The notes under the pieces are model-generated. The model saw nothing but the letters and a program-made list of their open reading frames with translations, made no database searches and was not told where the DNA came from. Shown one piece after another: positions 1,547 to 62,243 of a stretch of DNA of 64,000 bases. The translations under genes and the position numbers were made by a program. Numbering within the stretch: position 1 is the stretch's first letter; every line of letters starts with the position of its first letter. Source of the DNA: Acidimicrobiia bacterium (GTDB lineage Bacteria; Actinomycetota; Acidimicrobiia; UBA2766); NCBI GenBank assembly GCA_038904395.1, contig JBCKKC010000001.1, forward strand, positions 25,759 through 89,758, written 5' to 3'.

Positions 1547-1745
1547 GTAACCATTCACCCCCTCTCGTCATCCTGAGGGAGGCGCTAGCCGACCGTGAGG
1601 ATCCACCTGCGGCGAAGCCGCAGATCCACCTACATGTTCGAACCATTTTGAATTGCTCACTGCGTTCGCAACATAGCAAAGTCTGGATTGCCACGCCCTG
1701 AAGAGCCAGGGCTCGCAATGACGAGAGGGCGTGCTTAATGGCTTT
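1547..1745. mobile_element. MITE-like palindromic repeat element, copy E1 (full length)
   Basis: Left terminus GTAACCATTCAC, arm CGTCATCCTGAGGG, central hairpin GGATCCACCTGCGGCGAAGCCGCAGATCCACC, palindrome TTGAATTGCTC..GCAA, and right arm GGATTGCCACGCCCTG..CCAGGGCTCGCAATGACG. Shared with about 19 other loci in the window. Confidence 0.8.
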
Positions 1746-1762
1746 AGCCTTGCTTGACCTGT

Positions 1763-2932
1763 TCAAGTGCCTTTGAAGTTGAGGACTTGGGTTAGGGTGT
1801 GCTCGACTTCGACGAGGTCGCTTTGGTCGGCCATCACTTGGTTGATATCTTTGTAGCAGGACGGGATTTCATCGAGGAGCGATTTGGCTCGACCCTTTAA
1901 CCAGACTTTGCCCCGCATTTGGTCGGAGAGTTCCTGGGTGGTGAAACGCTTGCGGGCTTGAGTGCGAGAGAAGCGGCGGCCGGCGCCGTGCGCACAGGAA
2001 TTGAAACTGTCACGATTGCCCTTGCCACGAACAATAAAGGTTTGCGTACCCATCGAGCCTGGAATGACCCCGTAGTCGCCCGGCTCGGCCCGAATCGCGC
2101 CCTTGCGGGTGATCCAGAGTTCTTTGCCGTCGTGCACCTCTAGGGCGGCAAAGTTGTGATGACAGTTGATGCGCTCGATTTGTCGACCGCGCCCAACCTC
2201 GTGAAACACTTCGGCCAGAACCGCATCCATCATGCGCTCCCGATTGCCGAGAGCGTAATCTTGCGCCCACAACATGTCGTCAATGTAAGTAGTGAATTCC
2301 GGCTGGCCCTGTTCGAAATAGGCCAGGTTGGGATCGGTCAGAGGCACCTGATTAGTTTTGGCCAGCTGACGAGCCTTGCCTATATGGTGACGGGCCAGCT
2401 CGTTACCGATCCATCGACTCCCCGAATGCAGCACCACCCAGACTTGCCCATTTTCGTCAAGGCTAACCTCTATAAAATGGTTGCCCGAGCCGAGCGTGCC
2501 GAACTGCTGAACTGTCTTCTTAACTTGCTTATCGGAGAAGTTGCTGGGCGGTGGATGCTTGGCCAGCCAGGCTTGCGAGTGGCCTATCGCCGGACCGCCT
2601 CCATGATGACTCTCGCCAACGCCGGCTGGAATGACCCGATTGATGCGAGTCAGGAGAGGCTCCAGCGTGTCGGGAAGATCCTCTTGAGACAGGTCTGTCT
2701 GCACCGCTATCATCCCACAACCGATATCGACACCAACCGCCGCCGGAATTACCGCGCCTTCAGTTGGAATGACAGACCCGACTGTCGCCCCAATTCCCAA
2801 GTGAGCATCCGGCATTAACGCCACATGTCCGCTCACAATCGGCATCTCAGCAGTCTTGATAGCCTGCTCGAGCGTATTCGAGTCGAGCTCGGAAGCCCAG
2901 TTCAACAACTTCGGCGTAACTAGTTCTGGCAT
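1763..2932 (-). CDS. rtcB: RNA-splicing ligase RtcB
   Basis: Motifs DIGCGM, GSGNHF, CHHNF, TRKGA, PGSMGT and CAHGAGR are diagnostic of RtcB. Length 389 aa. Confidence 0.9.
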   Translation of the reverse strand: MPELVTPKLLNWASELDSNTLEQAIKTAEMPIVSGHVALMPDAHLGIGATVGSVIPTEGAVIPAAVGVDIGCGMIAVQTDLSQEDLPDTLEPLLTRINRVIPAGVGESHHGGGPAIGHSQAWLAKHPPPSNFSDKQVKKTVQQFGTLGSGNHFIEVSLDENGQVWVVLHSGSRWIGNELARHHIGKARQLAKTNQVPLTDPNLAYFEQGQPEFTTYIDDMLWAQDYALGNRERMMDAVLAEVFHEVGRGRQIERINCHHNFAALEVHDGKELWITRKGAIRAEPGDYGVIPGSMGTQTFIVRGKGNRDSFNSCAHGAGRRFSRTQARKRFTTQELSDQMRGKVWLKGRAKSLLDEIPSCYKDINQVMADQSDLVEVEHTLTQVLNFKGT

Positions 2933-3023
2933 GACTTCACCGTAACAGGCGCGACCGGCCCCGGCGCCACGTTGCCCTAGACTGTGCTAGATTACTTTGG
3001 CATTCAAAACCAAGGGGGTCATC

Positions 3024-3188
3024 ATGGCCGAAAATGCTGAAGATAATCAATATTCCAGGTTTTCGGAAGATGCTGGTGGTCGATTAGCCTATGCGTCGCC
3101 TTGTCTGATGACTTTTGGTGCTCTGAATAGCCTTGTTGGCGGGGCGCATGGAGGAAATGCCGATGTAGGTAACATTACTTCGGGATGA
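3024..3188 (+). CDS. hypothetical small protein (54 aa) with Gly-rich C-terminus
   Basis: Strong SD AAGGGGG lies 5 nt upstream of the ATG at 3024. The ORF stands alone on the + strand between rtcB and the NHL lipoprotein gene. No recognisable domain. Confidence 0.3.
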   Translation: MAENAEDNQYSRFSEDAGGRLAYASPCLMTFGALNSLVGGAHGGNADVGNITSG

Positions 3189-3325
3189 AATTGGTTTGGT
3201 CCTGAACTCAGGTCACCGCATCCGGTTTTTCGCGCGCGAATGAGAGCTATTTGACCTTGCCATTGGATAGCTCGGGGGCAATTTACTGAGCTGGTTCCGT
3301 TCCGTTCGAGAGGATCGAGCTGACA

Positions 3326-8461: not shown

Positions 8462-8612
8462 ATCCTCCTGGCGATATGGTTTCGCTGGCAGCGCCTCCTA
8501 TCATATCAGTCATGATATAGGGTCGGCTTGTTCAGGCAACAAGGGGGCCACATCAAACCGTCATTCCGTGACAATTCGGGGGGGGCCGCCAAAGTGTCGC
8601 TATCAGGCATTT

Positions 8613-8829
8613 CGTCATCCTGAGGGAGGCCCTGCCAGCCAACCGAAGCCCTGATGCGAAGCGAAGGGGTGAGGATCCAGGAATCCGAATTCTGTGAGCG
8701 AAGCGAGCAGTTCAAAATGGATCGAATCTACGGGTGGACCTGCGGCTTCGCCCCAGATGGATCCTCACGCCCTGGCTGGCGCCAGGGCTCAGGATGACGG
8801 AGGGGGGGCGACGAGGACGTGAATAGTAC
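8613..8829. mobile_element. MITE-like repeat element, copy E2
   Basis: CGTCATCCTGAGGG arm, central GGATCC..CTGCGGCTTCGCC hairpin, CCAGGGCTCAGGATGACG arm, and GGACGTGAATAGTAC terminal repeat. Confidence 0.75.
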
Positions 8830-8862
8830 GTGACCAGGCAACAATGGGGCCACATCAAACTG

Positions 8863-12037: not shown

Positions 12038-12261
12038 GTAACCATTCACGTCCTCTTCCGTCATCCTGAGGGAGGCGCTAGCCGACCGTGAGGATCCACC
12101 TGTGGCGAAGCCGCAGATCCACCTGCATGTTCGATCCATTTGAATTGCTCGCTCCGCTCGCAACACGGCAAAGTCTGGATTGCCACGCCCTGCCAAAGCC
12201 CAGGGCTCGCAATGACGAAGCGCTGGTAGCGACACTCTGGCCAGGACACGTGAATGGTTAC
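12038..12261. mobile_element. MITE-like repeat element, copy E3 (full length, inserted into vapC)
   Basis: Both terminal repeats are present (GTAACCATTCACGTCC at 12038 and GACACGTGAATGGTTAC ending at 12261). It starts 2 bp after the antitoxin stop, where a vapC start (ATGA overlap) would be expected. Confidence 0.8.
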
Positions 12262-16261: not shown

Positions 16262-16432
16262 TGACCGTCATTGCGAGGAGCCAGCTCTGGGGCGACGTGG
16301 CAATCCAGAGCCTGTGGCGTAGCCGCAGAACCACCCTAAGGTTCGATCCCTTTTGAATTGCTCGCTTCGCATCGCAACACAGCAAAGCCTGGATTGCCAC
16401 GCCCTGCCAGAGCCCAGGGCTCGCAATGACGA
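16262..16432. mobile_element. MITE-like repeat element, copy E4
   Basis: CGTCATTGCGAG arm, ..GTAGCCGCAGAACCACC, TTTGAATTGCTCGCTTCGCATCGCAA, and GGATTGCCACGCCCTGCCAGAGCCCAGGGCTCGCAATGACG. Confidence 0.75.
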
Positions 16433-16461
16433 TCGTGGTGACATCCCTTGGAACTACTCAT

Positions 16462-18051
16462 CTATGGTGTGGGATAGGCTGCCAAGATTTGATGTCCGAT
16501 CACATCCATTTCGATGGCTAACTTGCTTGTTGGTCTCCATCGCCCCGCTGGCTTGCTATACCAGTAGCCGACTAACTTTCCGCAGTCATGGGTTACGACC
16601 AATCGGTTATTCCTATGTGAAAATGTGGACGGCACATTGCCCTGGTTTTGTGCCGCTGTAAACTCAGCCAAGAGAGTTTCGATCTTTCCAGAGTCGAAGA
16701 TGTCCGGTACGAACCGACTTCTGACACCATGGAAATCTGTGTGGAATTGCTCTAAGCGGGAACTGAACTCGCCGGAATTGCCAACTTGGGCTGCCAGGGA
16801 ACCGAGGGATTCAGCCTGGCCCGCAGTGACATCGGAGGCAGCTGCGGCAGCATTTCTTGACATGTCTCCTGACGTGACTAAATCTCTCGCCGAAATAGCA
16901 ATGGAAGCGAGCCTGGGCGGATTGTCAAGTGCAAAGAACATGCTGTGCTGTCCAGCCACGATTCCACTTGGTCGACTGGCACGTATCGGAATGGGCCACA
17001 TGGCGAACTGCCCGTTTGCGGCGATTCGGGCAATACAGTTGAGCCCACTAAGAGTGGACCACATGTTGCCATCTGGACCAAGGGCGACGCTTGCAGGCAT
17101 TGCTCCGGGCGGCAACCTAAGCTCACGTTGCGTCTCTTGTGTTACAAATCCGATGTTGCCTGCAGTGCTTATGTACCAAATCACACCTTCCTGGCCAGAC
17201 GCGATCATTCGGGGATTTGCGGAACCTTCCAGGCTGAAGCCTTCTCTTCTACCAAAGGTCACCGGATCATCAATCGAGGAGGCATCTGTTTGGTATCGGA
17301 TGGACTCTAATAGCCCAGGGCGTTTTGAGCCTATTCCCACAATCTTGGAGTCTGCTGTGACAACCTGGTCAGTCGGAAACGGTCGCGACGGTGAATAGAT
17401 GGCATAGGAATTGTCTGGCTCAGGACTATCTGCGAGCTTGAGAATTGCCACATTTGCCCGGTTTGCGACAATCAATTCCCCTCCCGCTTTGCCCATTACT
17501 AATGAATGTGGATTTGGAAGATTCATATTCTCTGGCAATCTGAATGGGGCTTGCTGCTTGAGGACGAGAGCTGCATCGTCTGAGTTGTCTAAATCCGCTG
17601 AATGGGTAGGTTGTGCAGCGACTTGCGCCAGTGATAGTCGATGGATGGCGTCCCCTCTTTGGGTAACGATATAGAGCATCTGGCGCTTGACATCAACGCA
17701 AATTCTCGCGATTCGGGCATCCCCATTGACCTGCGGCACGATGTACGAATATTGACCTTGGGCCGAATGCTGGTGCAAGACGTGTCGGCCAGGATCAAGC
17801 CAGATGAGATCTCCGTTCGGCAATACGGTGAGATCTTCTATGGTGGAGTTTCCGTGAGGTCCATCGGCGAGAACCCTAATAGTGCCCGTACGCAGTGGCT
17901 TGCCGGTGGCATTAGTGTTATCAAAAATGTCGTGTACACCGCCAGCGTGAGCGGGATGTGGGTCCAGAGCGATGGCCAATGTGCCCGTCAACAGGCCAGC
18001 CAATGCGAAGCTGAGGATTCGAAGAATAAATTTGTTGACTTTTGCTGACAT
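16462..18051 (-). CDS. secreted protein with Vgb-lyase/NHL-like beta-propeller repeats
   Basis: Signal peptide (..ALDPHPAHA). Repeated GPDG-type blades (GPDGNMWSTLSGLNCIARIAANGQF..WPIP). Function unknown. Confidence 0.55.
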   Translation of the reverse strand: MSAKVNKFILRILSFALAGLLTGTLAIALDPHPAHAGGVHDIFDNTNATGKPLRTGTIRVLADGPHGNSTIEDLTVLPNGDLIWLDPGRHVLHQHSAQGQYSYIVPQVNGDARIARICVDVKRQMLYIVTQRGDAIHRLSLAQVAAQPTHSADLDNSDDAALVLKQQAPFRLPENMNLPNPHSLVMGKAGGELIVANRANVAILKLADSPEPDNSYAIYSPSRPFPTDQVVTADSKIVGIGSKRPGLLESIRYQTDASSIDDPVTFGRREGFSLEGSANPRMIASGQEGVIWYISTAGNIGFVTQETQRELRLPPGAMPASVALGPDGNMWSTLSGLNCIARIAANGQFAMWPIPIRASRPSGIVAGQHSMFFALDNPPRLASIAISARDLVTSGDMSRNAAAAASDVTAGQAESLGSLAAQVGNSGEFSSRLEQFHTDFHGVRSRFVPDIFDSGKIETLLAEFTAAQNQGNVPSTFSHRNNRLVVTHDCGKLVGYWYSKPAGRWRPTSKLAIEMDVIGHQILAAYPTP

Positions 18052-28524: not shown

Positions 28525-28775
28525 TACACACTTCCCCCTCCGTCATTTCGAGCAAAGCGAAGCAACGAAGCAACCCGGGCTTCGATGCTTGGCGAGCGTA
28601 GCTTGCAATTCAAATAGATCGAACATGTAGGTGGATCTGCGGCTTCGCCGCAGGTGGATCCTCACAGTCGGCTGACGCCTCCCTCAGGATGACGAACGGT
28701 GATGGGGACGTGGATTGCCACGCCCTGTCAAAGCCCAGGGCTCGCAATGACGGGATGGGGGACGTGAATGGCGAC
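28525..28775. mobile_element. MITE-like repeat element, compound copy E8
   Basis: Element body (..TTGCAATTCAAATAGATCGAAC..GGATCTGCGGCTTCGCCGCAGGTGGATCC..CCTCAGGATGACG) plus an extra right arm GGATTGCCACGCCCTGTCAAAGCCCAGGGCTCGCAATGACGG and terminal repeat GGGGGACGTGAATGGCGAC. Confidence 0.75.
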
Positions 28776-34085: not shown

Positions 34086-34285
34086 CAACCATTCACGTCC
34101 CCCCCTCCGTCATTGCGAGCCCTGGCTCTGCAGGGCGTGGCAATCCAGGCTTTAAAAGCTGCGAGCGCAGCTCGCTGTCGAAACCAGGGACACCCCGGTC
34201 ACCCCGAACGTCCATTTGGAATTGCTCGCTACGCTCGCAAAGCAGTAAAGCCTGGATTGCTTCGCTCCGCTCGCAATGACGGCGA
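34086..34285. mobile_element. MITE-like repeat element, copy E10
   Basis: CAACCATTCACGTCC terminus, CGTCATTGCGAGCCCTGGCTCTGCAGGGCGTGGCAATCCAGGCTTTAAAAG, TTGGAATTGCTCGCTACGCTCGCAAAGC, and ..GCTCGCAATGACGG. Confidence 0.8.
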
Positions 34286-34314
34286 GAGACGACCGTTGCA
34301 TCAACCGTCGCAAA

Positions 34315-36557: not shown

Positions 36558-36636
36558 ACTTGCTCGCAAGCTCGCAAAACATGTTAAAGCCTGGATTGCC
36601 ACGCCCTGTCAAAGCCCAGGGCTCGCAATGACGGAG
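36558..36636. repeat. MITE-like repeat element, partial copy E11 (right half only)
   Basis: TTGCTCGCAAGCTCGCAAAAC .. GCCTGGATTGCCACGCCCTGTCAAAGCCCAGGGCTCGCAATGACGG. Confidence 0.7.
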
Positions 36637-37017
36637 AATGATCGTTGCTCGCCAGGCCACCCACCAGATAGGCACCGATAGTCTCCAACACTTTCACATC
36701 AACATCAGAAACCAACAACCGAATACGAATCCGAACACCACCCGGAAGAGGCACCACGAACGGATCACCAATCTCACGTAACCCATTGCCCGACATACCA
36801 ACCACCAACCAACAGACACAACCTCGAACGCACATTCGAAACAGTACCAACAGCAGCACCCAACATCAAGTCACTCCAAACCAAAATCCCAAATCTTTTC
36901 AATTTCTCCAAAACATCCATGAGAAATATTCTCCATTCCTGAACCCCAACAGATAATCACTGAAATACACACAGGATCAATGACCAAACGGGGAACAGTT
37001 CGCAACCCTGGCGTCTC

Positions 37018-38211: not shown

Positions 38212-38295
38212 GTAGTCCGTCCACGGTCAGAAGGTGAGTCCACAATCCCAGGCTAGTTGACGGGCTGCGACCGAGAACACGCACAATACTGGGTA

Positions 38296-38545
38296 GCCAT
38301 TCACGTCCCCCACCCACCCCGTCATCCTGAGCCCTGGGCTTTGACAGGGCGTGAGGATCCAGGCTTTAAATATTTGCGAGCGAAGCGAGCAATTCGGAAT
38401 GGATCGAATCTACGGCTGGGCCCTGCGGCTTCGCCCCTCACTGTCGGCTGGCGCCTCCCTCAGGGCAGGCTCCGGATGGATCCTCACGCCCTGCCAAAGC
38501 CCAGGGCTCAGGATGACGAAAGGCCTGGTAATGGCCTTCCGTCGG
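38296..38545. mobile_element. MITE-like repeat element, compound copy E12
   Basis: GCCATTCACGTCC terminus, CGTCATCCTGAGCCCTGGGCTTTGACAGGGCGTGAGGATCC, TTGCGAGCGAAGCGAGCAATTCGGAA, and an extra GGATGGATCCTCACGCCCTGCCAAAGCCCAGGGCTCAGGATGACG arm. Confidence 0.75.
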
Positions 38546-38614
38546 TGGGGGTCCTGAATCGGCGACTCGGCTAGTATGCGACGCAGTGTCTGGCGAATCA
38601 GGGGAGCACGCGCT

Positions 38615-41180: not shown

Positions 41181-43505
41181 ATGAAGACTCTGTTGGTTGC
41201 GAATCGCGGCGAGATTTGCCAGCGGATAATGGTGACAGCTCAATCGATGGGGATCCGCTGTGTTGCTGCCTATTCTGATTCTGATGCCCACGGCCCGTTC
41301 GTCACCCAAGCCGACCTGGCCGTAGCTCTCGGCGGTACACATCCACGTGATTCTTACCTGAGCATTGACAAAATTCTCGCAGCCGCCCACTCAAGTGGGG
41401 CTGATGCAATCCATCCCGGCTATGGCTTCTTAAGCGAAAATGCCGATTTTGCCCAGGCGTGTCTTGATGCCGGTATCACCTTCGTGGGACCAACTCCTGA
41501 AGCAATTCGGATAATGGGCAACAAGCTGACAGCAAAAGAGCTTGTCCGCCCACTGAAGGTCCCAACCCTCGAGAGCGTCACTGTAACTGACGACCCCGGA
41601 GACTGGCTAGCCGCTGCTGAAGCTATGAAATTTCCCGTCTTAGTGAAGGCTGCTGCCGGTGGTGGCGGCCGAGGCATGCGAATAGTTGATGCGCCAGCCG
41701 ATCTAGCCGAGTCTATTGAGAGTGCCCAACGTGAAGCAGAGGCCGGTTTTGGTAACAGTTCTGTCTTTATCGAGCCATATTTGCCAAACTCCCGCCACAT
41801 CGAGGTTCAAGTCTTTGGTGACACCCGGGGAAATCTCGTTCACCTCTTTGAGCGTGAGTGTTCAATCCAACGGCGTCACCAGAAAGTGATTGAAGAGAGC
41901 CCCTCAATTGTTCTCTCGGCTGAGACTCGCAAGGCAATGACAGATGCAGCCCTGGCTGTGGCAGCGTCGGTGAAATATGTCGGAGCTGGAACGGTTGAGT
42001 TTTTGGTTGATGGGACGGACTTCTATTTTCTCGAAATGAACACTCGACTCCAAGTTGAGCATCCCGTCACCGAGATGCTGACTGGACTCGATCTGGTTCG
42101 CTGGCAGCTAGAGGTGGCTCAGCAGTTGCCATTGCCGCTCACCCAAAGCGAGATTGTGAGCAACGGTCATGCAATAGAGGCTCGACTCTGCGCCGAGATT
42201 CCTGAGCAAGACTTCCTTCCGACGACCGGCCACTTTCACCGCTATTGGCATAGACAACCCGAGGGGGTGCGCTTTGACGACGGGGTCATTTCGGGAAGCC
42301 AGATGTCGAGCCACTACGACAACCTGCTTGCCAAAGTTGTAGCCCATGGGGAATCACGCCCCGAAGCCATCGCCCGATTGATTCGAGCCTTGCAGACAAT
42401 GCAGTTGCATGGTGTGGCCACAAACCGTGATTACTTGGTGGCGATCCTACAAACCGAAGAGTTCCAACGGGGCGAAACACCGACCACTTTCCTAGAACGG
42501 AATAGTGACAAGGTACTGGGCAATGTCGCCAGGATGTCTGCGCCGCTGACAGCGGCACCGAGTGTCGACACCGACACTCGGCCTGATGCGCCCGATGCCG
42601 AGCAGGGCGAACGCCCCTCCGGGGATCGTTCCCTGCACGCCAGCGCTGCGGCCATCTTTATGGCATTGCGTCGCAAAGCCGACTCTCCGACACAGTCCTT
42701 TGCTCCGCTCGGTTGGCGCAATATGCCGAGCCAGCCGAACACATGCCAATTCAGTCACGTCGACACGTTGTCGCGATCAGAACACATATATTCGGTCAGC
42801 TATTCGATGGATCGAAACGGCGATTTTCACGTGAGTTGCGACCGGGCGATAGACGACGGGGTGGCGACCGCTGAGAGCACTGCCAGCGACCCCGTCAAGG
42901 TTGCCCCGACCCCGACCCCGACCGAGAAGGTCAGAGTTGCTTTTTTCCCGTCATTGCGAGGAGGCGTTAGCCGACGAAGCAACCTAGTCCATGACTCACG
43001 TCACGAAGACACAGGTCACGGACTAGGTTGCTTCGCTTCGCTCGCAATGACGGGGGAGGAACGTGGGTGGTTACCTACGAACTGTGGGGAAATTACGCTC
43101 GAGGTCGGCGGGGTCCGTCAGCACTTCTTCGTCAACATCGTCGGCGACAATGTGTACATCAACGACGACCAGTGCCAAAGCGATTTTCGTTCATTGGGCC
43201 GCCCAGGCGAGGGCGCATCCGCTCAGACCAAGCAACTAGCAAGCACTGCCGGCCCAACTTCGCCGATGCCTGGCCAGATCGTTGCCGTTGAAGTTAGTCT
43301 CGGCGACTCGGTCACAGCAGGACAAACCTTAGTAATCCTCGAAGCCATGAAAATGGAGCACCGCATCGAAGCAGCCGCCGACTCTATCGTCGCTGAAATT
43401 CACGTCGAAACAGGTCAATCCGTTGATGCACATCAACCGTTGATTACCCTCGGCCCCCCTTTAGACTCAGCTCCAGTCATCACAAACGAGGTCGAAAATG
43501 CCTGA
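41181..43505 (+). CDS. acyl-CoA carboxylase alpha subunit (biotin carboxylase + BCCP), carrying an in-frame MITE-derived insert
   Basis: MKTLLVANRGEI.., an ATP-grasp biotin carboxylase domain, and a C-terminal biotinyl domain EAMKMEH. It is about 100 aa longer than typical because of the linker insert. Confidence 0.85.
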   Translation: MKTLLVANRGEICQRIMVTAQSMGIRCVAAYSDSDAHGPFVTQADLAVALGGTHPRDSYLSIDKILAAAHSSGADAIHPGYGFLSENADFAQACLDAGITFVGPTPEAIRIMGNKLTAKELVRPLKVPTLESVTVTDDPGDWLAAAEAMKFPVLVKAAAGGGGRGMRIVDAPADLAESIESAQREAEAGFGNSSVFIEPYLPNSRHIEVQVFGDTRGNLVHLFERECSIQRRHQKVIEESPSIVLSAETRKAMTDAALAVAASVKYVGAGTVEFLVDGTDFYFLEMNTRLQVEHPVTEMLTGLDLVRWQLEVAQQLPLPLTQSEIVSNGHAIEARLCAEIPEQDFLPTTGHFHRYWHRQPEGVRFDDGVISGSQMSSHYDNLLAKVVAHGESRPEAIARLIRALQTMQLHGVATNRDYLVAILQTEEFQRGETPTTFLERNSDKVLGNVARMSAPLTAAPSVDTDTRPDAPDAEQGERPSGDRSLHASAAAIFMALRRKADSPTQSFAPLGWRNMPSQPNTCQFSHVDTLSRSEHIYSVSYSMDRNGDFHVSCDRAIDDGVATAESTASDPVKVAPTPTPTEKVRVAFFPSLRGGVSRRSNLVHDSRHEDTGHGLGCFASLAMTGEERGWLPTNCGEITLEVGGVRQHFFVNIVGDNVYINDDQCQSDFRSLGRPGEGASAQTKQLASTAGPTSPMPGQIVAVEVSLGDSVTAGQTLVILEAMKMEHRIEAAADSIVAEIHVETGQSVDAHQPLITLGPPLDSAPVITNEVENA
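42947..43075. mobile_element. MITE-like element (short palindromic variant) inserted in-frame in the carboxylase alpha linker, copy E13
   Basis: CCGTCATTGCGAGGAGGCGTTAGCCGACGAAGCAACCTAGTCC ... GGACTAGGTTGCTTCGCTTCGCTCGCAATGACGG, then GGAACGTGGGTGGTTAC. No stop codon. Encodes ..SLRGGVSRRSNLVHDSRHEDTGHGLGCFASLAMTGEERGW.. Confidence 0.75.
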
Positions 43506-43521: not shown

Positions 43522-43753
43522 GTAACCATTCACGTCCCCTCAGTCCGAGGGGTGCTACCAGGCCTTCGTCATTGCGAGCCCTGGGCTCTGGCAGGGCGTG
43601 GCAATCCAGACTTTGCTATGTTGCGAGCGCAGCGAGCAATTCAAAATGGTTCGATCATGCGGGTGGTCTGCGGCTTCGCCACAGGATGGATCCTCACGCC
43701 CTGGCTGACGCCAGGGCTCAGGATGACGGGAAGAGGGAGCTGAATGGTTAAAC
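43522..43753. mobile_element. MITE-like repeat element, copy E14 (full length, accA-atuA spacer)
   Basis: GTAACCATTCACGTCC .. CGTCATTGCGAGCCCTGGGCTCTGGCAGGGCGTGGCAATCC .. TTGCGAGCGCAGCGAGCAATTCAAAA .. GGTCTGCGGCTTCGCCACAGGATGGATCC .. CAGGGCTCAGGATGACGGGAAGAGGGAGCTGAATGGTTAAAC. The atuA ATG lies inside the right terminal repeat. Confidence 0.8.
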
Positions 43754-45603
43754 CGTTGCGTATCGCAAACTGCAGCGGCTTTTACGGTGACCGATTGTCG
43801 GCAGCTCAAGAGATGGTCACCGGCGGGCCGATTGACGTTCTGACGGGCGATTGGCTGGCTGAGCTGACCATGCTGATCTTGGCCAAGGACCGGATGAAGG
43901 ATCCAGCACGTGGCTATGCAAAGACGTTTCTTAAACAGCTTGAAGTTGTCTTGGGGACCTGTCTCGATAGCGGGATTCGAATTGTGAGCAATGCCGGAGG
44001 GCTTAACCCGGCCGGCTGCGCGGAAGCTATTAGCGAGCTGGCTCAGCGCCTGGGACTTACCCCTACGGTGGCTTTCGTGGGCGGCGACGATCTGATCGGC
44101 CAACTCGACCAGCTTCAGGCCAGCGGCGAGGAGTTGATCAACCTGGATACAGGCGAACACTGGGCCCAGATGGGCAAAGCGCCCATAACAGCCAATGCTT
44201 ACCTGGGCAGCTGGGGAATCAGCACCGCTCTGGGCCAAGGGGCGGATGTAGTCGTGACAGGCCGAGTGACAGACGCATCGCTTGTTGTTGGGCCAGCAGC
44301 GTGGCACTTTGACTGGGCTCATGACGACTGGGATCAACTCGCGGGCGCTATCGTTGCCGGCCACGCAATCGAGTGTGGCACTCAAGTGACGGGCGGAAAC
44401 TATTCGTTCTTCGACGAAATCCCTAACGCTCACAGATGCGGTTTCCCGATAGCCGAAGTGTTCAGCAACGGGTCATCGATCATTACAAAACATCCCGGCA
44501 CCGGTGGGGCTGTCTCGATAGGCACAGTAACAGCCCAGTTGGTTTACGAGATTGCTAGTCCGAGTTACGCCAATCCCGATGCCACTGCCCTTTTCGATAC
44601 AATCACCCTCGAAACAGTTGGCCCCGATCGGGTGCAAATTTCGGGGGTGCGGGGCACGCCACCGTCGCCAGACCTCAAGGTGGGCATCAACTATTTGGCC
44701 GGGTTTCGCAACTCGATGACGTTCTTGCTCACGGGGCTGGACATCAGCGAAAAGGCCCAACTCGCCCAAGATAGCCTGTGGGCTCAGTTCCCCGAAGGCC
44801 CGAACCATTTCGAATCAGTTTCTGTAGACCTCATCGACTCCGCCCGGCCAAACCCGCCAAGCAATCAAGACGCAATTTCGTCCCTGCGGGTGACGGTCTC
44901 AGATCCTGATGCAAGCAAGGTGGGGCGGGCTTTTTCATCAAAAGTCGTCGAGCTCGCCCTCGCTAGCTATCCGGGCTTTACCCTCACCACTCCCCCGCAA
45001 GACTCGACCCCATACGGAATTTTTTGGCCCACAACCATTGACCGCAGTCACGTAGATGAATTCGTCGAAATCGGTGGAACTCGCTACCCAATTAGCCATC
45101 CGCCTGCCCCCATGCAGTCATTGCGAGCGAAGCGAGCAATTCTCCCCCGTCATCCTGAGCCCTGGCGCCAGCCAGGGCGTGAGGATCCAGGAATCCGAAT
45201 TTTGCGAGCGAAGCGAGCAAGTCGAAACGGATCCCGAGACCTGCCACTCGGAGTGGTCATGGGCGCGCGTTCCGGCGACAAGGGTGGAAACGCTAACATT
45301 GGCGTGTGGACTTCCGATGTCCGCTGTTATGAATGGCTCGACGATTTTCTGTCGATCGACAAGTTGAGGGAGCTAATGCCCGAGACAAAGTCCCTCGAAA
45401 TTCATCGCTACAGGTTGGCCAACCTTAACGCCCTCAACTTTGTCGTTGTTGGTCTCCTCGGCCGTGGCGTCGCAGCCTCAACCCGTATCGATCCTCAAGC
45501 AAAGGGCCTGGGCGAATACTTGCGAGCAAAAGTGGTGCCGCTACCGGTCGAGCTGCTGTCAGATGCAGGCAAGAAGGGTCTACCGACGCAGGCCGCTGAC
45601 TAG
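43744..45603 (+). CDS. AtuA-family (acyclic terpene utilisation, DUF1446 + C-terminal domain) protein, carrying an in-frame MITE-derived insert
   Basis: N-terminus ..LRIANCSGFYGDR.. and C-terminal ..ARSGDKGGNANIGVW.. are typical of AtuA. A 40-codon insert lies between the two conserved regions. Confidence 0.7.
   Translation: MVKPLRIANCSGFYGDRLSAAQEMVTGGPIDVLTGDWLAELTMLILAKDRMKDPARGYAKTFLKQLEVVLGTCLDSGIRIVSNAGGLNPAGCAEAISELAQRLGLTPTVAFVGGDDLIGQLDQLQASGEELINLDTGEHWAQMGKAPITANAYLGSWGISTALGQGADVVVTGRVTDASLVVGPAAWHFDWAHDDWDQLAGAIVAGHAIECGTQVTGGNYSFFDEIPNAHRCGFPIAEVFSNGSSIITKHPGTGGAVSIGTVTAQLVYEIASPSYANPDATALFDTITLETVGPDRVQISGVRGTPPSPDLKVGINYLAGFRNSMTFLLTGLDISEKAQLAQDSLWAQFPEGPNHFESVSVDLIDSARPNPPSNQDAISSLRVTVSDPDASKVGRAFSSKVVELALASYPGFTLTTPPQDSTPYGIFWPTTIDRSHVDEFVEIGGTRYPISHPPAPMQSLRAKRAILPRHPEPWRQPGREDPGIRILRAKRASRNGSRDLPLGVVMGARSGDKGGNANIGVWTSDVRCYEWLDDFLSIDKLRELMPETKSLEIHRYRLANLNALNFVVVGLLGRGVAASTRIDPQAKGLGEYLRAKVVPLPVELLSDAGKKGLPTQAAD
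45113..45233. mobile_element. MITE-like element fragment inserted in-frame in atuA, copy E15
   Basis: GTCATTGCGAGCGAAGCGAGCAATTC then CCCCGTCATCCTGAGCCCTGGCGCCAGCCAGGGCGTGAGGATCCAGGAATCCGAATTTTGCGAGCGAAGCGAGCAAGTC, which is identical to the left half of copy E6. Translated as ..MQSLRAKRAILPRHPEPWRQPGREDPGIRILRAKRASRNGSRD.. Confidence 0.8.
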
Positions 45604-46767: not shown

Positions 46768-46795
46768 CCAGCTCTTAGTGAACCATTAAGGTCCC

Positions 46796-46989
46796 CCACA
46801 CTCCGTCATTGCGAGGAACGAAGCAATCCAGGTTTTACAGTCTTGCGAGCGCAGCGAGCAAATTCAAATGGATCGAGTCTGATGATAGAGGCCTGCTCGC
46901 TACGCTCGCAGAATATTTAAAGTCTAGATTGCCACGCCCTGTCAAAGCCCAGGGCTCGCAATGACGGGGTGGGGGACGTGAATGGTTAC
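46796..46989. mobile_element. MITE-like repeat element, copy E16
   Basis: CCGTCATTGCGAGGAACGAAGCAATCCAGG .. TTGCGAGCGCAGCGAGCAAATTCAAA .. AGATTGCCACGCCCTGTCAAAGCCCAGGGCTCGCAATGACGG .. GGGGGACGTGAATGGTTAC. Confidence 0.8.
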
Positions 46990-48672: not shown

Positions 48673-48759
48673 TATGCGCCAATCCCCCCGGTATGAAATA
48701 CCAGGGAAGTGTAGCCGGTCGGGCCAGCACCCCGTGGCGAGAGTGTCGCTACCAGCTTT

Positions 48760-49024
48760 ACGTCATTGCGAGGAGCCAGAGGCCACGCACGACCCCAATC
48801 GCGGAGACACTCCAACCCTCCCGTCATTGCGAGCCCTGGCTCTGCAGGGCGAAGCAATCCAGACTTTAAATATTTGCGAGCGCAGCTCGCAATTCAAAAT
48901 CGATCGAACAGTCGGTTGGTCTGCGGCTTCGCCGCAGGTGGATCCTCACGGTCGCTGCGCTCCCTCAGGATGACGAGAGGGGGGGTAGCCCCCCTCAGGA
49001 TGACGGGAGGGGTGAATGGCTACC
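48760..49024. mobile_element. MITE-like repeat element, compound copy E17
   Basis: Two left arms (CGTCATTGCGAGGAGCCAGAGG.., CGTCATTGCGAGCCCTGGCTCTGCAGGGCG..), centre TTTGCGAGCGCAGCTCGCAATTCAAAA, ..GGTCTGCGGCTTCGCCGCAGGTGGATCC.., a duplicated CCCTCAGGATGACG end, and terminal repeat GGGGTGAATGGCTAC. Confidence 0.8.
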
Positions 49025-49037
49025 GGCTGGGTCCACC

Positions 49038-50791: not shown

Positions 50792-52861
<2,070 letters not shown>

Positions 52862-59127: not shown

Positions 59128-59134
59128 CCATTTC

Positions 59135-59360
59135 CCCTCCGTTATTGCGAGCGTAGCGAGCAATTCGAAACTGACCCACCGTATCAGTTGGTCTGCGGCT
59201 TCGCCGCAGGTGGATCCTCACGGTCGCCTAGCGGCTCCCTCAGGATGACGAACGGGGGGGGCTTCGCCCCTCCCGCTGCACTCACGACTTGCTCGGGGGC
59301 AGGCTCTGCTTCGCTACGCTCGCAATGAGTGAGGGGCGGCTGGGCCGCCCCTCACTGTAC
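59135..59360. mobile_element. MITE-like repeat element, copy E18 (immediately 3' of tRNA-Val), ending in a 12-bp GC hairpin
   Basis: CCGTTATTGCGAGCGTAGCGAGCAATTCGAAA .. GGTCTGCGGCTTCGCCGCAGGTGGATCC .. CCCTCAGGATGACG .. TTCGCTACGCTCGCAATGAGTGAGGGGCGGCTGGGCCGCCCCTCAC. Confidence 0.75.
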
Positions 59361-60243: not shown

Positions 60244-60347
60244 TGTTGTTCCTCCATTGAAGATGAGCAGTGCACAAGATGCATTTGCTCAGGAGAGGGG
60301 AGCATACCTGCCGCCTTGGCTCAAAGAGAAATCCGCCGGCGACCCGC

Positions 60348-60566
60348 AACCATTCACCCCTTCCGTCATCCTGAGGGAGCGCAGCGACCGTGAGGATCCA
60401 CCTGCGGCGAAGCCGCAGAACAACCCGCATTTTCGATCCATTTTTGAATTGCTCGCTGCGCTCGCAAAAGATGTGAAGCCTGGATTGCGAGCCCTGCCAA
60501 AGCCCAGGGCTCGCAATGACAGTAGGTCTGGTAGCGCGAAACTGGCTAGGGGGATGCGAATGGCTA
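60348..60566. mobile_element. MITE-like repeat element, copy E19 (full length)
   Basis: CAACCATTCACC .. CGTCATCCTGAGGGAGCGCAGCGACCGTGAGGATCCACCTGCGGCGAAGCCGCAGAAC .. TTTTTGAATTGCTCGCTGCGCTCGCAAAAG .. CCAGGGCTCGCAATGAC .. GGGGGATGCGAATGGCTAC. Confidence 0.8.
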
Positions 60567-60578
60567 CCCGAGATGGGC

Positions 60579-62075
60579 TCAACCCGCCGCCGAGTTGTCG
60601 AGGAGCTGCTTGACCAGGGAATTCGCCGTGTTGGGATTGGCCTTGCCGCGAGAGGCTTTCATGACTTGGCCGACAAGAAAACCTAGAATCTTGTCGTTGC
60701 CGGCTCTGAATTTCTCAACGGCATCAAGGTTGTTGTCAAGCACCTCACGAATCAGGCTTGTTATTTCATCCGTGTCGGAGACTTGAGCAAGACCTTGTTG
60801 GGTAACGATTTCTTGCGGCCCGGTGCCATGCTTCTCCGCCCTCAGCACATCAGCAACAACGTTGCGAGCCAGTTTCTTCGAGAGAGTGCCGACGCTGATC
60901 AGTTCTGTGAGCTCAACAAAACTGCCCACGGGCAAGTTCACATCGACAAAGTCTATTGCCGAGTCATTCATAAACGCTAAGACTTCTTGCGAGGCCCAGT
61001 TGAAGCTGGATCGAGCATCCGCTCCGGCAGCGATTTCGCTCTCAACCCAGTCGGCCATATCTTTCGTGTAGATCACAGACCCCGCCAGCTCAGCGGGGAC
61101 GCCATATTCCTCAACGAAATACCTGACTCGAGCTGCCGGCAATTGCGCTGGCACGGTCTCGGCCACTTGGGCGATCCAAGCCTGATCAGGCTTAATCGGC
61201 ACTAGATCGGGCTCAGGGAAATAGCGGTAGTCGAAGGCTTCTTCTTTGGACCGCAGAGTGTGCGTGCGGCCTTCATCCTCATTCCAATGGCGTGTCTCTT
61301 GGGCAATGGAGTCACCACTGGCCAAGACAGCCTTCTGCCGGCCAATCTCGTATTCGAGTGCTCGTTGCAGGCTTCGCAGCGAGTTCATGTTCTTGACTTC
61401 GACCTTCGTGCCAAGCTTGGAGTCGCCCTTGGGACGCAAAGAAACGTTGGCGTCGACCCGCAGTGAGCCTTCCTCCATTTTGACGTCCGAAATTTCTAGC
61501 ATCTCCAAGATCGCCCGCAGCTCGGCAACATACGACCGGGCCTGGTCGGGATTACGAATGTCAGGTTTCGAAACAATCTCTAGCAGTGGCACACCAGAAC
61601 GGTTGTAGTCGACGAGGGTGTAAGTCGCTCCGTGGATACGGCCGCCGCCACCACCAACGTGACGTGACTTGCCGGTGTCCTCTTCAAGGTGGGCTCGCTC
61701 CAGCTGCACGGTAAAGGTCTCACCTTGGGAATCAAGCGCCTCGATCGTGCCGCCCCGACAAATTGGCTCATCATACTGGCTGATCTGGAAGTCTTTGGGC
61801 ATGTCAGGATAGAAATAGTTCTTGCGATGGAAGATGGCACGGCCAATCTCGGACCCAACAGCGAGACCAAAGCGCATCGCCAATTCAACGGCCTGCTTGT
61901 TGATGACGGGTAAGGAACCAGGCAGTCCCAAACAGACCGGGCAAGTACGAGTATTGGGCTCGCCGCCAAACTCATTACGACAACTACAAAACATGCCCGA
62001 CTCAGTCTTGAGCTCGGCGTGAACTTCAAGCCCAATTACTGGCTCAAACTCGATTGTCTTTTCACTGGGCACCAT
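60579..62075 (-). CDS. gatB: Asp-tRNA(Asn)/Glu-tRNA(Gln) amidotransferase subunit B
   Basis: EPVIGLEVHAEL, CPVCLGLPGSLPV, and the GatB/YqeY C-terminal domain. 498 aa. Confidence 0.92.
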   Translation of the reverse strand: MVPSEKTIEFEPVIGLEVHAELKTESGMFCSCRNEFGGEPNTRTCPVCLGLPGSLPVINKQAVELAMRFGLAVGSEIGRAIFHRKNYFYPDMPKDFQISQYDEPICRGGTIEALDSQGETFTVQLERAHLEEDTGKSRHVGGGGGRIHGATYTLVDYNRSGVPLLEIVSKPDIRNPDQARSYVAELRAILEMLEISDVKMEEGSLRVDANVSLRPKGDSKLGTKVEVKNMNSLRSLQRALEYEIGRQKAVLASGDSIAQETRHWNEDEGRTHTLRSKEEAFDYRYFPEPDLVPIKPDQAWIAQVAETVPAQLPAARVRYFVEEYGVPAELAGSVIYTKDMADWVESEIAAGADARSSFNWASQEVLAFMNDSAIDFVDVNLPVGSFVELTELISVGTLSKKLARNVVADVLRAEKHGTGPQEIVTQQGLAQVSDTDEITSLIREVLDNNLDAVEKFRAGNDKILGFLVGQVMKASRGKANPNTANSLVKQLLDNSAAG

Positions 62076-62243
62076 TCACGTCCTCCGTCATCCTGAGCCC
62101 TGGCGCCAGCCAGGGCGTGGGGATCCATCTGTGGCGAAGCCGCAGGTCCACCCTAAGATTCGATCCATTTTGAATTGCTCGCTGCGCTCCCAACACAGTA
62201 AAGTCTGGATTGCTTCGTTCCTCGCAATGACGATCGTGGTTAC
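62069..62243. mobile_element. MITE-like repeat element, copy E20 (in the gatA-gatB spacer)
   Basis: CACCATTCACGTCC terminus (contains the gatB start codon on the minus strand), CGTCATCCTGAGCCCTGGCGCCAGCCAGGGCGTGGGGATCC, CTGTGGCGAAGCCGCAGGTCCACC, TTTTGAATTGCTCGCTGCGCTCCCAA, and ..CGCAATGACGATCGTGGTTAC. Confidence 0.8.

What the first reader, a model, noticed from the sequence alone, without database searches (positions are those of the whole stretch)
1547..62243. Dense family (about 20 copies, about 1 per 3 kb) of modular palindromic MITE-like elements with 16-bp terminal inverted repeats
The same 120-265 bp element recurs at 1547, 8613, 12038, 16262, 24041, 26232, 27408, 28525, 30287, 34086, 36558, 38296, 42947, 43522, 45113, 46796, 48760, 59135, 60348 and 62069. 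It is built from interchangeable hairpin modules. The outer arms are CGTCATTGCGAGCCCTGG..CCAGGGCTCGCAATGACG or CGTCATCCTGAGGG..CCCTCAGGATGACG. There is a central hairpin GGATCCACCTGCGGCGAAGCCGCAGGTGGATCC and a palindrome TTGAATTGCTCGCTGCGCTCGCAA. Full copies end in terminal inverted repeats GTAACCATTCACGTCC / GGACGTGAATGGTTAC. Copies occur in both orientations, as halves, and as compound elements (E8, E12, E17), which suggests past mobility and recombination. No transposase is present in the window. The elements make up roughly 6% of this window, which is unusually high for a bacterial chromosome. They generate many spurious ORFs in the six-frame track (peptides like PGASQGVRIQESEFCERSEQ and RWICGFAAGGSSRSAGASLRMT). 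I do not recognise the sequence as a named family (REP/BIME, ERIC, Correia, RUP, MIRU, RPE, SRE).
Basis: seen in the sequence. Interest (0 to 1): 0.8.

Follow-up and report, generated by a model that had tools for sequence, protein, structure and literature searches.

The report
Dense REP-like hairpin repeats (CGTC-tagged)
The window, from an uncultured Acidimicrobiia (actinobacterial) genome, carries 21 mosaic hairpin repeats that fill over a third of the DNA between genes; they are a new, lineage-specific family of an already described class of bacterial "REP" repeats rather than a new kind of element.

Summary
The motifs occur far above chance.

The building block is a 26-41 nt unit: CGTC, then AT plus a 3-nt stem, GAG, an inner hairpin or loop, GTG or GAA, the complementary 3 nt plus AT, and a CCA tail. 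Two outer-stem versions (ATTGC/GCAAT and ATCCT/AGGAT) are matched correctly in 36 of the 37 units checked. Eight of 12 stem pairs show changes on both sides.

A full element is an inverted pair of units around a spacer with two small hairpins. It is often capped by GTAACCATTCACGTCC in inverted orientation. The CGTC tag, AT stem start, CCA tail, inverted dimers, intergenic bias and in-frame intragenic copies are the defining features of the CGTC-tagged REP superfamily (Di Nocera 2013). That superfamily includes Neisseria dRS3 and Rickettsia RPE-4/6.

There are no target-site duplications and no transposase in the window. The composite was found in none of 185,579 reference genomes, the metagenome records or the IMG/VR viral contigs.

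Two copies are translated in frame inside genes. Four copies supply the ribosome-binding site and ATG of the next gene.

Verdict: a new member of a known kind, of moderate interest.

The parts
1547..1745 (.). E1: terminal repeat (TIR), C-type unit (+), central hairpin, palindrome, T-type unit (-), degenerate cap. Lies between convergent genes. The TAA in the TIR is the stop codon of ORF 1146-1550.
8590..8835 (.). E2: GTGTCGCTATCAG module, C-type unit with a long insertion, palindrome, central hairpin, C-type unit (-), TIR-like GGACGTGAATAGTAC.
12038..12261 (.). E3: full copy with both TIRs. C-type unit (+), central hairpin, palindrome, T-type unit (-), GGTAGCGACAC module.
16262..16462 (.). E4: two T-type units around the central hairpin and palindrome. 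Carries the alternative right cap GATCGTGGTGACATCCCTTGGAACTACTCAT, shared with E20.
24041..24216 (.). E5: truncated copy (palindrome, degenerate central hairpin, C-type unit (-), extra half unit). Lies in a divergent intergenic region and abuts the start of the sulfotransferase gene.
25228..25309 (.). The TIR supplies GGGAGGA-N5-ATG for ORF 25302-26216.
26232..26432 (+). E6: half unit, C-type unit (+), palindrome, central hairpin, C-type unit (-).
27408..27600 (+). E7: the only unit with mismatched outer-stem halves (CCT...GCAAT), then palindrome, central hairpin, C-type unit (-), TIR. The TIR ATG is the start of the UbiA-family ORF 27593-28522.
28525..28775 (+). E8: compound copy. T-like unit, palindrome, central hairpin, C-type unit (-), extra T-type unit (-), TIR. 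Fills a convergent spacer (250 of 252 nt).
30287..30520 (+). E9: full copy with both (degenerate) TIRs. Both of its units carry compensatory inner-stem variants: GCC...GGC in the left unit (30333) and CCCAGG...CCTGGG in the right unit (30493).
34085..34290 (.). E10: TIR, T-type unit (+), divergent centre, palindrome (-), minimal T-type unit (-).
36558..36640 (.). E11: remnant with a palindrome fragment and a T-type unit (-).
38293..38562 (+). E12: compound copy. TIR, C-type unit, palindrome, hairpin with an inserted fragment, C-type unit (-), degenerate cap. Lies in a divergent region.
42947..43078 (+). E13: 132-nt (44-codon) inverted dimer of T-type units plus a TIR-like end. Translated in frame inside the biotin-carboxylase/BCCP gene 41166-43505, in a loop that most homologues lack.
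43522..43752 (+). E14: full copy with both TIRs. Its right TIR supplies GAGGGAG-N4-ATG, the start codon of atuA (43744).
45113..45250 (+). E15: mini T-type unit, C-type unit and palindrome. Translated in frame in the variable linker between the AtuA catalytic and ferredoxin-like domains.
46780..46989 (.). E16: degenerate TIR, minimal T-type unit, two palindromes, T-type unit (-), perfect TIR. Fills a convergent spacer (210 of 225 nt).
48740..49027 (+). E17: compound copy. GTGTCGCTACCAG module, degenerate T unit, T-type unit, palindrome, central hairpin, C-type unit (-), half unit, TIR. Ends 10 nt from the stop of the gyrA-like ORF.
59135..59335 (+). E18: starts 5 nt after tRNA-Val. Mini T-type unit, central hairpin, C-type unit (-), further degenerate T-type unit (-).
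60348..60578 (.). E19: TIR, C-type unit, central hairpin, palindrome, T-type unit (-), GCTACCAG module, TIR-like end.
62068..62262 (.). E20: fills the whole 183-nt gatA-gatB spacer. Its TIR gives GGAGGA-N5-ATG for gatB (start at 62075, minus strand). Its alternative cap contains gatA's stop codon.

Best explanation
These are compound REP/BIME-type repeats: a lineage-specific family of the CGTC-tagged REP superfamily in a divergent Acidimicrobiia genome.

Shown here:
- The basic unit is an unpaired CGTC tag, a hairpin whose stem starts A-T then T-A, and a CCA tail.
- The stem is bipartite. A 5-bp outer stem comes in two mutually compensating versions. It encloses a purine-rich internal loop and a 6-7-bp inner hairpin.
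- A full element is an inverted pair of units with the CGTC tags facing outwards. The roughly 90-nt spacer holds two small GCGNAGC-tipped hairpins on opposite strands.
- The element is often closed by a 16-nt inverted cap.
- The modules are reshuffled between copies.

Inferred:
- The elements are non-autonomous selfish DNA. Each hairpin with its tag is probably recognised as single-stranded DNA by an enzyme encoded elsewhere. The model is the IS200/IS605-type Y1/HUH enzymes that act on GTAG REPs.
- This would explain selection on pairing rather than on sequence, the conserved unpaired tag and tail, and the absence of target duplications. Modules are then mixed by recombination.
- After insertion the elements are co-transcribed with flanking genes. 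The stable stem-loops probably act as barriers at mRNA 3' ends.

Shown from position only: the outward-facing ends (a G-rich tract, 4-6 nt, then ATG) serve as ribosome-binding site and start codon for four downstream genes. Two copies are tolerated as in-frame peptide insertions in variable loops.
For: Repeats far above chance.

Unit anatomy. Forty-two of the 43 CGTCATnnnGAG sites are of the TGC or CCT type, and there are 41 ...ATCCA tails.

Evidence that pairing is under selection:
- The outer-stem halves match in 36 of the 37 units checked.
- The same inner hairpin, CCCTGGGCTTTGACAGGGC, occurs with both outer-stem types.
- On 22 distinct units, 92% of cells are paired against 28-49% when the partner columns are slid. 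Eight of 12 pairs have changes on both sides. The covariation score is 0.367 against 0.141 for shuffles, reached by 0 of 500 shuffles.
- Whole elements fold better than shuffles: DNA z = -2.3 and -5.6, RNA z = -3.5.

Agreement with the published superfamily definition and behaviour (PMC3733652): CGTC tag, AT at stem positions 1-2, CCA tail, inverted dimers, spacers of 20-100 bp that in Agrobacterium carry two stem-loops, dimers embedded in longer palindromes in Halothiobacillus, a convergent/unidirectional bias, intragenic copies, and no dedicated transposase.

Findings in this window:
- Occupancy is 6 of 8 convergent, 11 of 25 unidirectional and 2 of 8 divergent spacers.
- There is no target-site duplication at any of the 21 elements.
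- There is no transposase in the window.
- E4 and E20 share their centre and cap, have different units, and sit next to unrelated genes. Similarity ends sharply at the cap.
- In-frame copies are shown by homologue alignments.
- The TIR ATG is the ORF start at 25302, 27593, 43744 and 62075.

Distribution:
- Simpler units and dimers of the same design are widespread elsewhere: more than 120 IMG/VR contigs and Novosphingobium, Methylosinus and Methylobacterium megaplasmids.
- A Chloroflexia MAG has a further compensatory stem version, ATCGC/GCGAT.
Against: - The units do not meet the published dimensions (stem 8-9 bp, loop 4-5 nt).
- The published consensus sequences are in a figure that I could not read, so identity with CGTC-1 to CGTC-4 is untested.
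- Mobilisation by a single-strand-specific HUH enzyme is inference only. No such gene is in the window, and the literature reports none linked to CGTC repeats.
- No closely related genome exists in the collections: AtuA's nearest homologue is 62% identical and GyrB's is 71%. Presence/absence polymorphism, the direct proof of mobility, could therefore not be examined.
- The covariation comes largely from a few sequence subfamilies that have been copied, not from many independent events.
- The 16-nt inverted cap is a transposon-like feature that simple REPs lack.
- No expression data exist for any effect at the RNA level.
Confidence: 0.7

Rival explanations
1. Classical MITEs. These would be internally deleted derivatives of a DDE-transposase insertion sequence, moved in trans by that transposase through its 16-bp terminal inverted repeats. 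The hairpin modules would be passenger sequence.
For: The inverted terminal sequence GTAACCATTCACGTCC is present at about 17 element ends. Element size is 80-290 bp. The terminal repeats pair in the predicted folds. Copies lie next to unrelated genes with sharp boundaries.
Against: - No target-site duplication at any copy, including E3 and E14, whose terminal repeats are perfect or nearly so.
- More than half of the ends lack the repeat or carry other caps.
- The conserved and covarying parts are the internal hairpins, not the ends.
- The same kind of unit is dispersed in many other bacteria without this repeat. Only 1 of 218 unit flanks in IMG/VR loci contains ATTCACG.
- The terminal repeat joined to a unit was not found in the viral contigs and gave only one chance hit in the metagenome records.
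Confidence: 0.15
2. Host-selected regulatory elements rather than selfish DNA. Possibilities are U-tract-less transcription terminators or mRNA stabilisers, or binding sites for a nucleoid protein or gyrase. They would be spread by recombination and kept because they act on neighbouring genes.
For: - They are preferentially placed after genes: 6 of 8 convergent spacers.
- They sit tightly against stop codons.
- Pairing is under selection and the RNA folds are stable.
- Four ends are used as ribosome-binding site plus ATG.
- E. coli REP/BIME elements are known to stabilise mRNA and bind gyrase and IHF (established knowledge; background section of PMC3733652).
Against: - No T-runs follow the hairpins, and no terminator-like hit falls in an element.
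- Elements lie in both orientations relative to transcription. They also occur in divergent promoter regions and inside coding sequence.
- The nearest relatives have none in 76 kb around gyrB, so they are not a conserved part of gene regulation in the lineage.
- Half copies and scrambled copies are common.
Confidence: 0.12
3. Artefact of metagenome assembly or binning: chimeric joins at repeats.
For: The source is a metagenome-assembled contig: the exact proteins are held once, from an NCBI contig of 115,486 nt.
Against: - The 21 copies all differ from one another and have different module combinations.
- They sit between intact genes in sensible operons, for example gatA-gatB and the atu/carboxylase cluster.
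- Two lie inside ORFs that stay open.
Confidence: 0.01

Closest known systems
CGTC-tagged REP superfamily (Di Nocera, De Gregorio & Rocco 2013, BMC Genomics 14:522; families CGTC-1 to CGTC-4, including Neisseria dRS3 and Rickettsia RPE-4/RPE-6)
   Same: - Unpaired CGTC at one end, stem starting A-T then T-A, and a CCA tail.
- Mostly inverted dimers.
- Spacers that can carry two stem-loops (A. tumefaciens CGTC-3), and dimers embedded in a longer palindrome (H. neapolitanus).
- Heterodimers are common.
- Intergenic, with a bias to convergent and unidirectional spacers and close to stop codons.
- In-frame intragenic copies.
- No adjacent transposase.
   Different: - The stem is bipartite (5 bp, an internal loop, then 6-7 bp), giving units of 39-41 nt instead of an 8-9-bp stem with a 4-5-nt loop.
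- Two interchangeable outer-stem versions coexist in one genome.
- A 16-nt inverted cap with an outward-facing SD-like tract plus ATG.
- The host phylum, Actinomycetota (Acidimicrobiia), is not among the five phyla that paper lists for CGTC repeats.
- Density is very high: 1 per 3 kb and 37% of intergenic DNA in this window.
- The composite sequences were found in no other genome searched.
GTAG REPs / REPINs and BIMEs mobilised by RAYT (IS200/IS605-type Y1 transposases)
   Same: Short tagged hairpins, inverted doublets that can fold into a long hairpin, mosaic clusters, no target duplication, intergenic location, and pairing kept by compensatory change.
   Different: The tag is CGTC, not GTAG. 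No RAYT gene was seen in the window. For CGTC repeats no cognate RAYT has been reported.
Rickettsia palindromic elements (RPE)
   Same: Palindromic repeats that also insert in frame into protein-coding genes and are translated. According to PMC3733652, RPE-4 and RPE-6 carry the CGTC tag.
   Different: Only 2 of 21 copies here are intragenic. Sequence similarity to the RPEs was not tested. The host is not an obligate intracellular proteobacterium.
Bacterial MITEs (e.g. Correia elements, Nezha, Chunjie)
   Same: Size of 80-290 bp, terminal inverted repeats on many copies, high copy number, and can donate expression signals to neighbouring genes.
   Different: No target-site duplication. The ends are dispensable. 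The conserved core consists of REP-type tagged hairpins.

Membership tests
CGTC-tagged REP superfamily | Unpaired CGTC tetranucleotide at one end of the hairpin (TGTC and CCTC variants allowed) | tested here: met
   43 CGTCATnnnGAG sites in the window. Nearly all units start with CGTC, with a few TGTC, AGTC or CGTT variants. Columns 2-4 of the tag are invariant and column 1 is at least 90% conserved in 22 aligned units.
CGTC-tagged REP superfamily | Stem almost invariably starts with complementary A-T and T-A at positions 1 and 2 | tested here: met
   Pairs 5-39 (A-T) and 6-38 (T-A) are present in 22 of 22 distinct units.
CGTC-tagged REP superfamily | Short unpaired 3' tail fitting CCA | tested here: met
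   19 GCAATCCA and 22 AGGATCCA tails in the window. The CC is 90-100% conserved in alignment A2.
CGTC-tagged REP superfamily | Stem of 8-9 bp and loop of 4-5 nt | tested here: not met
   The outer stem is 5 bp, followed by a 2x3 internal loop and a 6-7-bp inner stem with a loop of about 6 nt. Minimal units have a 5-bp stem and a 7-9-nt loop. The paper notes loops of other lengths in some Bradyrhizobium, Kosmotoga and Marinitoga families.
CGTC-tagged REP superfamily | Mostly inverted dimers with 20-100-bp spacers, often heterodimers | tested here: met
   15 of 21 loci have one unit on each strand with the tags facing outwards. Spacers are about 90 nt. The left and right units usually differ. 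I could not establish which orientation the paper calls 'HH'.
CGTC-tagged REP superfamily | Intergenic, preferentially between convergent or unidirectional genes; some copies inside ORFs | tested here: met
   Convergent 6 of 8, unidirectional 11 of 25, divergent 2 of 8 spacers. Two copies are in frame inside ORFs.
CGTC-tagged REP superfamily | Sequence match to one of the published consensus families CGTC-1 to CGTC-4 | not testable with these tools
   The consensus sequences are in Figure 2, which is not held. The supplements contain no matching strings. Indirect evidence: the simple T-type dimer is present in Novosphingobium aromaticivorans and relatives, which the paper lists as CGTC hosts.
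MITE (DDE transposon derivative) | Terminal inverted repeats | tested here: inconclusive
   Present at about 17 of 42 ends. Other ends carry different caps or none.
MITE (DDE transposon derivative) | Target-site duplication flanking each copy | tested here: not met
   No direct repeat longer than 2 nt at any of the 21 elements.
MITE (DDE transposon derivative) | A parent insertion sequence with the same ends | not testable with these tools
   None in the window. The terminal repeat plus unit is absent from the viral contigs and gave only one chance hit in the metagenome records.
GTAG REP / REPIN-RAYT system | GTAG tag and a RAYT gene flanked by the repeats | tested here: not met
   The tag is CGTC. 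No Y1 transposase domain was found in any window ORF. A genome-wide search was not possible.
Any Rfam RNA family | Covariance-model match | tested here: not met
   Only tRNA-Val reached threshold. Nothing in the elements scored even at E <= 1.

The most novel reading that the evidence does not exclude
The capped four-hairpin element may be the actual mobile unit of a CGTC-REP system that is still active in this lineage. On this reading the cap GTAACCATTCA-CGTC-C, which itself contains a second CGTC 8-13 nt upstream of the unit's tag, is the cleavage or recognition site of a so far unknown transposase for CGTC repeats. The published flank of Halothiobacillus CGTC-1 dimers (...aACC[dimer]attcacgGGT...) reads AACCATTCACG once the dimer is removed. 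That is the same 11-mer as the core of this cap, which hints at a partner sequence conserved across phyla. If this is right, the genome could identify the missing mobilising enzyme for a repeat superfamily that includes dRS3 and the RPEs. The outward-facing SD+ATG ends would then make it a portable translation-start cassette.
Probability: 0.15. Interest if true: 0.7.

Novelty: new member of a known kind. Interest (0 to 1): 0.4.

Why it matters
The find extends the CGTC-tagged REP class to Actinomycetota, and at an unusually high local density. It gives a very clean natural experiment on hairpin selection: two outer stems that differ at three positions on each side enclose an identical inner hairpin.

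It also shows how far such repeats can be woven into genes. One copy fills the whole gatA-gatB spacer, supplying gatA's stop codon and gatB's ribosome-binding site and start codon. Four copies in all donate start codons, and two are translated inside enzymes of the acyclic-terpene/leucine pathway.

For annotation, the elements generate spurious ORFs and N-terminal extensions that should be masked. The open question in this field is what mobilises CGTC repeats. A repeat-rich genome such as this one is a reasonable place to look, but the window alone does not answer it.

Tried and rejected
- **Rfam**, at gathering and at E <= 1: only tRNA-Val.
- **Full element E3 against PLSDB plasmids** (blastn): no match.
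- **Literature search for the literal unit strings**: only an unrelated plant primer.
- **Retrieving the source contig by exact protein look-up**: failed twice. The cluster look-up gave no name.
- **Hairpin-plus-unit 29-mer in 185,579 reference genomes**: 0 hits.
- **Commonest unit variant in the same collection**: 1 hit, in a Chloroflexia MAG.
- **Terminal repeat plus unit**: one chance hit in the metagenome records, in eukaryote-like sequence without hairpins, and 0 hits in the IMG/VR viral contigs.
- **Nearest relatives' gyrB neighbourhoods** (4 loci, 76 kb): 0 units.
- **Target-site duplications**: none.
- **'Frame-friendly' design of the elements**: not supported. Elements have 24 open frames, against 16.5 in shuffles and 30 in random genomic segments.
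- **Intrinsic terminators**: none fall in elements.
- **General link between the ATTCACG cap core and simple units in viral contigs**: 1 of 218 flanks, which is chance level.
- **Segmental duplication as the origin of E4 and E20**: rejected, because the flanking genes are unrelated.
- **GCGNAGC enrichment**: modest window-wide (88 against 59 expected), although the motif tips both central hairpins of nearly every element.
- **Also considered and dismissed on anatomy**: CRISPR arrays, integron attC sites, group II intron or retron fragments, and tRNA-derived SINEs.

Full report

Yes. The quoted motifs recur far above chance:
- CGTCATTGCGAGC at up to 1 mismatch: 22 hits against 0.12 expected.
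- The 16-nt terminal sequence at up to 2 mismatches: 10 against 0.02.
- CGTCATCCTGAGGG at up to 1 mismatch: 11 against 0.02.
- The palindrome TTGAATTGCTCGCTGCGCTCGCAA at up to 3 mismatches: 15 against 0.

One further copy lies at 25228-25309. The 21 loci total 4,192 nt, which is 6.55% of the window and 37% of its intergenic DNA.

One quoted string is wrong. GGATCCACCTGCGGCGAAGCCGCAGGTGGATCC has no match even at 3 mismatches. The real sequence is GGATCCACCTGCGGCGAAGCCGCAGATCCACC, with 10 matches. It is a 7-bp hairpin with a GAA loop between direct ATCCACC repeats.

**2. Anatomy**

All copies are built from one kind of unit. In order, the unit is:
- CGTC;
- AT plus three bases;
- GAG;
- an inner hairpin or a short loop;
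- GTG or GAA;
- the three complementary bases plus AT;
- CCA.

The three-base stem segment comes in two versions, TGC...GCA ('T-type') and CCT...AGG ('C-type'). In 36 of the 37 units checked the two halves match; the one exception is at 27424.

The same inner hairpin, CCCTGGGCTTTGACAGGGC, occurs inside both versions. Those units differ only by three compensating changes on each side. Inner stems also show swaps: CCCTGG/CCAGGG to CCCAGG/CCTGGG, and GGC/GCC to GCC/GGC.

On 22 distinct units:
- 92% of cells pair, against 28-49% when the partner columns are slid;
- 8 of 12 pairs have changes on both sides;
- no shuffle out of 500 reaches the observed covariation score.

Part of this signal comes from copied subfamilies rather than independent events.

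A full element (E3 at 12038-12261, E14 at 43522-43752) reads as follows:
- cap GTAACCATTCACGTCC;
- a C-rich tract;
- unit (+);
- a roughly 90-nt spacer with two small hairpins, TTGCGAGCGNAGCGAGCAA and CTGCGGCTTCGCCGCAG, whose GCGNAGC tips lie on opposite strands and which occur in either order;
- unit (-);
- a G-rich tract;
- the inverted cap.

Left and right units usually differ. Other recurrent modules are GTGTCGCTACCAG and an alternative cap shared by E4 and E20. Whole elements fold more stably than shuffles, both as DNA (z = -2.3 and -5.6) and as RNA (z = -3.5).

**3. Context**

The window is from a divergent Acidimicrobiia (Actinomycetota) metagenome-assembled genome:
- GyrB is at most 71% identical to anything in 5.8 billion proteins, and the best named hits are Acidimicrobiia MAGs.
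- AtuA is at most 62% identical to its nearest homologue.
- Window GC is 56%. Four relatives' gyrB loci are at 68-70% GC and contain no units in 76 kb.

No ORF in the window has a transposase domain.

Elements occupy 6 of 8 convergent, 11 of 25 unidirectional and 2 of 8 divergent spacers. They often fill the spacer completely. They carry no T-runs, and no terminator-like hit falls in them. There is no target-site duplication at any copy. Orientation of the asymmetric centre is mixed relative to transcription.

E4 and E20 share their centre and cap but have different units and lie beside unrelated genes. Similarity ends abruptly at the cap. This indicates dispersal with module exchange, not segmental duplication.

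**4. Overlap with genes**

Two copies are translated.
- E15 forms part of the variable linker between the two AtuA domains.
- E13 is a 132-nt dimer, 44 codons long. It sits in a loop of the biotin-carboxylase/BCCP subunit where most homologues have a gap.
- The source annotation keeps both as single ORFs (P0001 and P0241).

Read outwards, the cap is a G-rich tract, then 4-6 nt, then ATG-G. This ATG is the start of four real genes:
- a sulfotransferase (25302);
- a UbiA-family gene (27593);
- atuA (43744), whose N-terminus aligns with homologues;
- gatB (62075, minus strand), whose GatB_N domain starts at residue 13.

E20 fills the whole 183-nt gatA-gatB spacer. It also contains gatA's stop codon. 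That these starts are used is inferred from position and alignment, not measured.

**5. What it is**

The unit has the three sequence hallmarks of the CGTC-tagged REP superfamily of Di Nocera et al. 2013 (PMC3733652): an unpaired CGTC tag, a stem starting A-T then T-A, and a CCA tail.

That paper also describes:
- predominance of inverted dimers, often heterodimers;
- spacers of 20-100 bp that in A. tumefaciens carry two stem-loops;
- dimers embedded in a longer palindrome in H. neapolitanus;
- a bias to convergent and unidirectional spacers close to stop codons;
- intragenic copies;
- the absence of a dedicated transposase.

Neisseria dRS3 and Rickettsia RPE-4/RPE-6 belong to the superfamily.

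Simpler units of the same design are widespread:
- A simple dimer matches Novosphingobium, Methylosinus and Methylobacterium megaplasmids.
- A Chloroflexia MAG has a unit with a third compensating stem, ATCGC/GCGAT, around a CCCTGG...CCAGGG inner hairpin.

The window's family differs in several ways. Its stem is bipartite, so the published dimensions of 8-9 bp and 4-5 nt are not met. It has the 16-nt cap. It is in a new host phylum, and it is very dense.

Its composite sequences appear to be unique:
- 0 hits for hairpin plus unit in 185,579 genomes;
- 1 hit for the commonest unit variant;
- only a chance hit for cap plus unit in the metagenome records, and none in IMG/VR.

No Rfam family matches.

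**6. How it most likely works**

*Shown.* These are tagged hairpins under selection for pairing. They form mosaic inverted dimers, lack target duplications, lie mainly in intergenic DNA, and have a few copies absorbed into coding sequence or used as translation starts.

*Inferred, by analogy with GTAG REPs/RAYT and IS200/IS605.* The hairpin plus its conserved unpaired tag and tail is recognised as single-stranded DNA by an enzyme encoded elsewhere in the genome. Recombination shuffles the modules. Transcribed copies form stable stem-loops that probably protect or end upstream mRNAs. I give this explanation 0.7.

*Rivals.*
- A DDE-type MITE (0.15). The cap argues for it. Against it are the missing target duplications, the dispensable ends and the REP-type core.
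- Host-selected regulatory elements (0.12).
- Assembly artefact (0.01).

**7. Novelty and score**

The kind of element is known. This family, its host phylum and its combination of features are new, so I rate it a new member of a known kind, with interest 0.4.

The most novel reading not excluded is that the capped element is the active mobile unit. Its cap contains a second CGTC. Its core, AACCATTCACG, equals the published flank of Halothiobacillus CGTC-1 dimers once the dimer is removed. The cap could therefore be the recognition site of the still-unknown mobilising enzyme of CGTC repeats. I give this a probability of about 0.15, with an interest of 0.7 if true.

Noticed in passing
window 60579-63719: gatA (amidase) and gatB are separated by 183 nt that consist entirely of element E20. 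The element's alternative cap holds gatA's stop codon. Its terminal repeat provides GGAGGA-N5-ATG for gatB. A repeat is thus embedded in an essential operon without breaking it.
   Followed up: yes
window 49038-52831: gyrB is followed directly by a gyrA-like ORF of only 570 aa, with the DNA_topoisoIV domain but no C-terminal repeat domain. In the nearest relatives gyrA is 815-831 aa and separated from gyrB by other genes. This could be an atypical type II topoisomerase pair or a truncation. The ORF ends 10 nt from element E17.
   Followed up: no
window 59054-59160: The 3' end of tRNA-Val (GCACCA) runs straight into TTTCCCCTCC-GTTATTGCGAG. Together these resemble the element cap (GCACCATTCACGTCCTCC-GTCAT in E20). 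Either the element inserted right at the tRNA end or the resemblance is chance.
   Followed up: no
PMC3733652 text compared with window terminal repeat (e.g. 12038-12053): The published flank of Halothiobacillus neapolitanus CGTC-1 dimers, ...GAAAaACC[dimer]attcacgGGTaTTTC..., reads AACCATTCACG without the dimer. This is identical to the core of the cap GTAACCATTCACGTCC. An 11-mer match is unlikely by chance, but it could not be checked in the Halothiobacillus genome.
   Followed up: partly
whole window compared with L121-L124: Window GC is 56%. The gyrB regions of the closest relatives (GyrB 68-71% identical) are at 68-70% GC and lack the repeats. The lineage has both a shifted base composition and a repeat invasion.
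   Followed up: partly
L001-L120 (IMG/VR contigs): Simple CGTC units (CGTCATTGCGAG...GCAATCC), mostly as inverted pairs 20-40 nt apart, occur in more than 120 contigs classed as viral. REP-type repeats in phage or prophage DNA may deserve a separate look.
   Followed up: partly
L126 6280-6375 (Chloroflexia MAG OY969772.1): An inverted pair of units. One has the outer stem ATCGC/GCGAT around a CCCTGG...CCAGGG inner hairpin. This is a third compensating stem version of the same design, in another phylum.
   Followed up: partly
window 3335-3369 and 5737-5771: A 35-nt direct repeat (89% identical) brackets the 768-aa NHL-repeat gene 3326-5632. It is unrelated to the hairpin family.
   Followed up: no
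window 15402-15509 and 15567-15674: A 108-nt internal repeat (76% identical) lies inside the 436-aa ORF 14702-16012, which has no Pfam match.
   Followed up: no
window 3326-5632, 16462-24040, 24247-26216, 8126-11723, 56610-57236: Gene content includes very large NHL/teneurin-like repeat proteins (768 and 1,289 aa), three sulfotransferases, a Fic protein, HicB/Arc-like and HTH proteins, and a nucleotidyltransferase. The mix resembles that of host-associated or symbiont genomes. The habitat is unknown.
   Followed up: no
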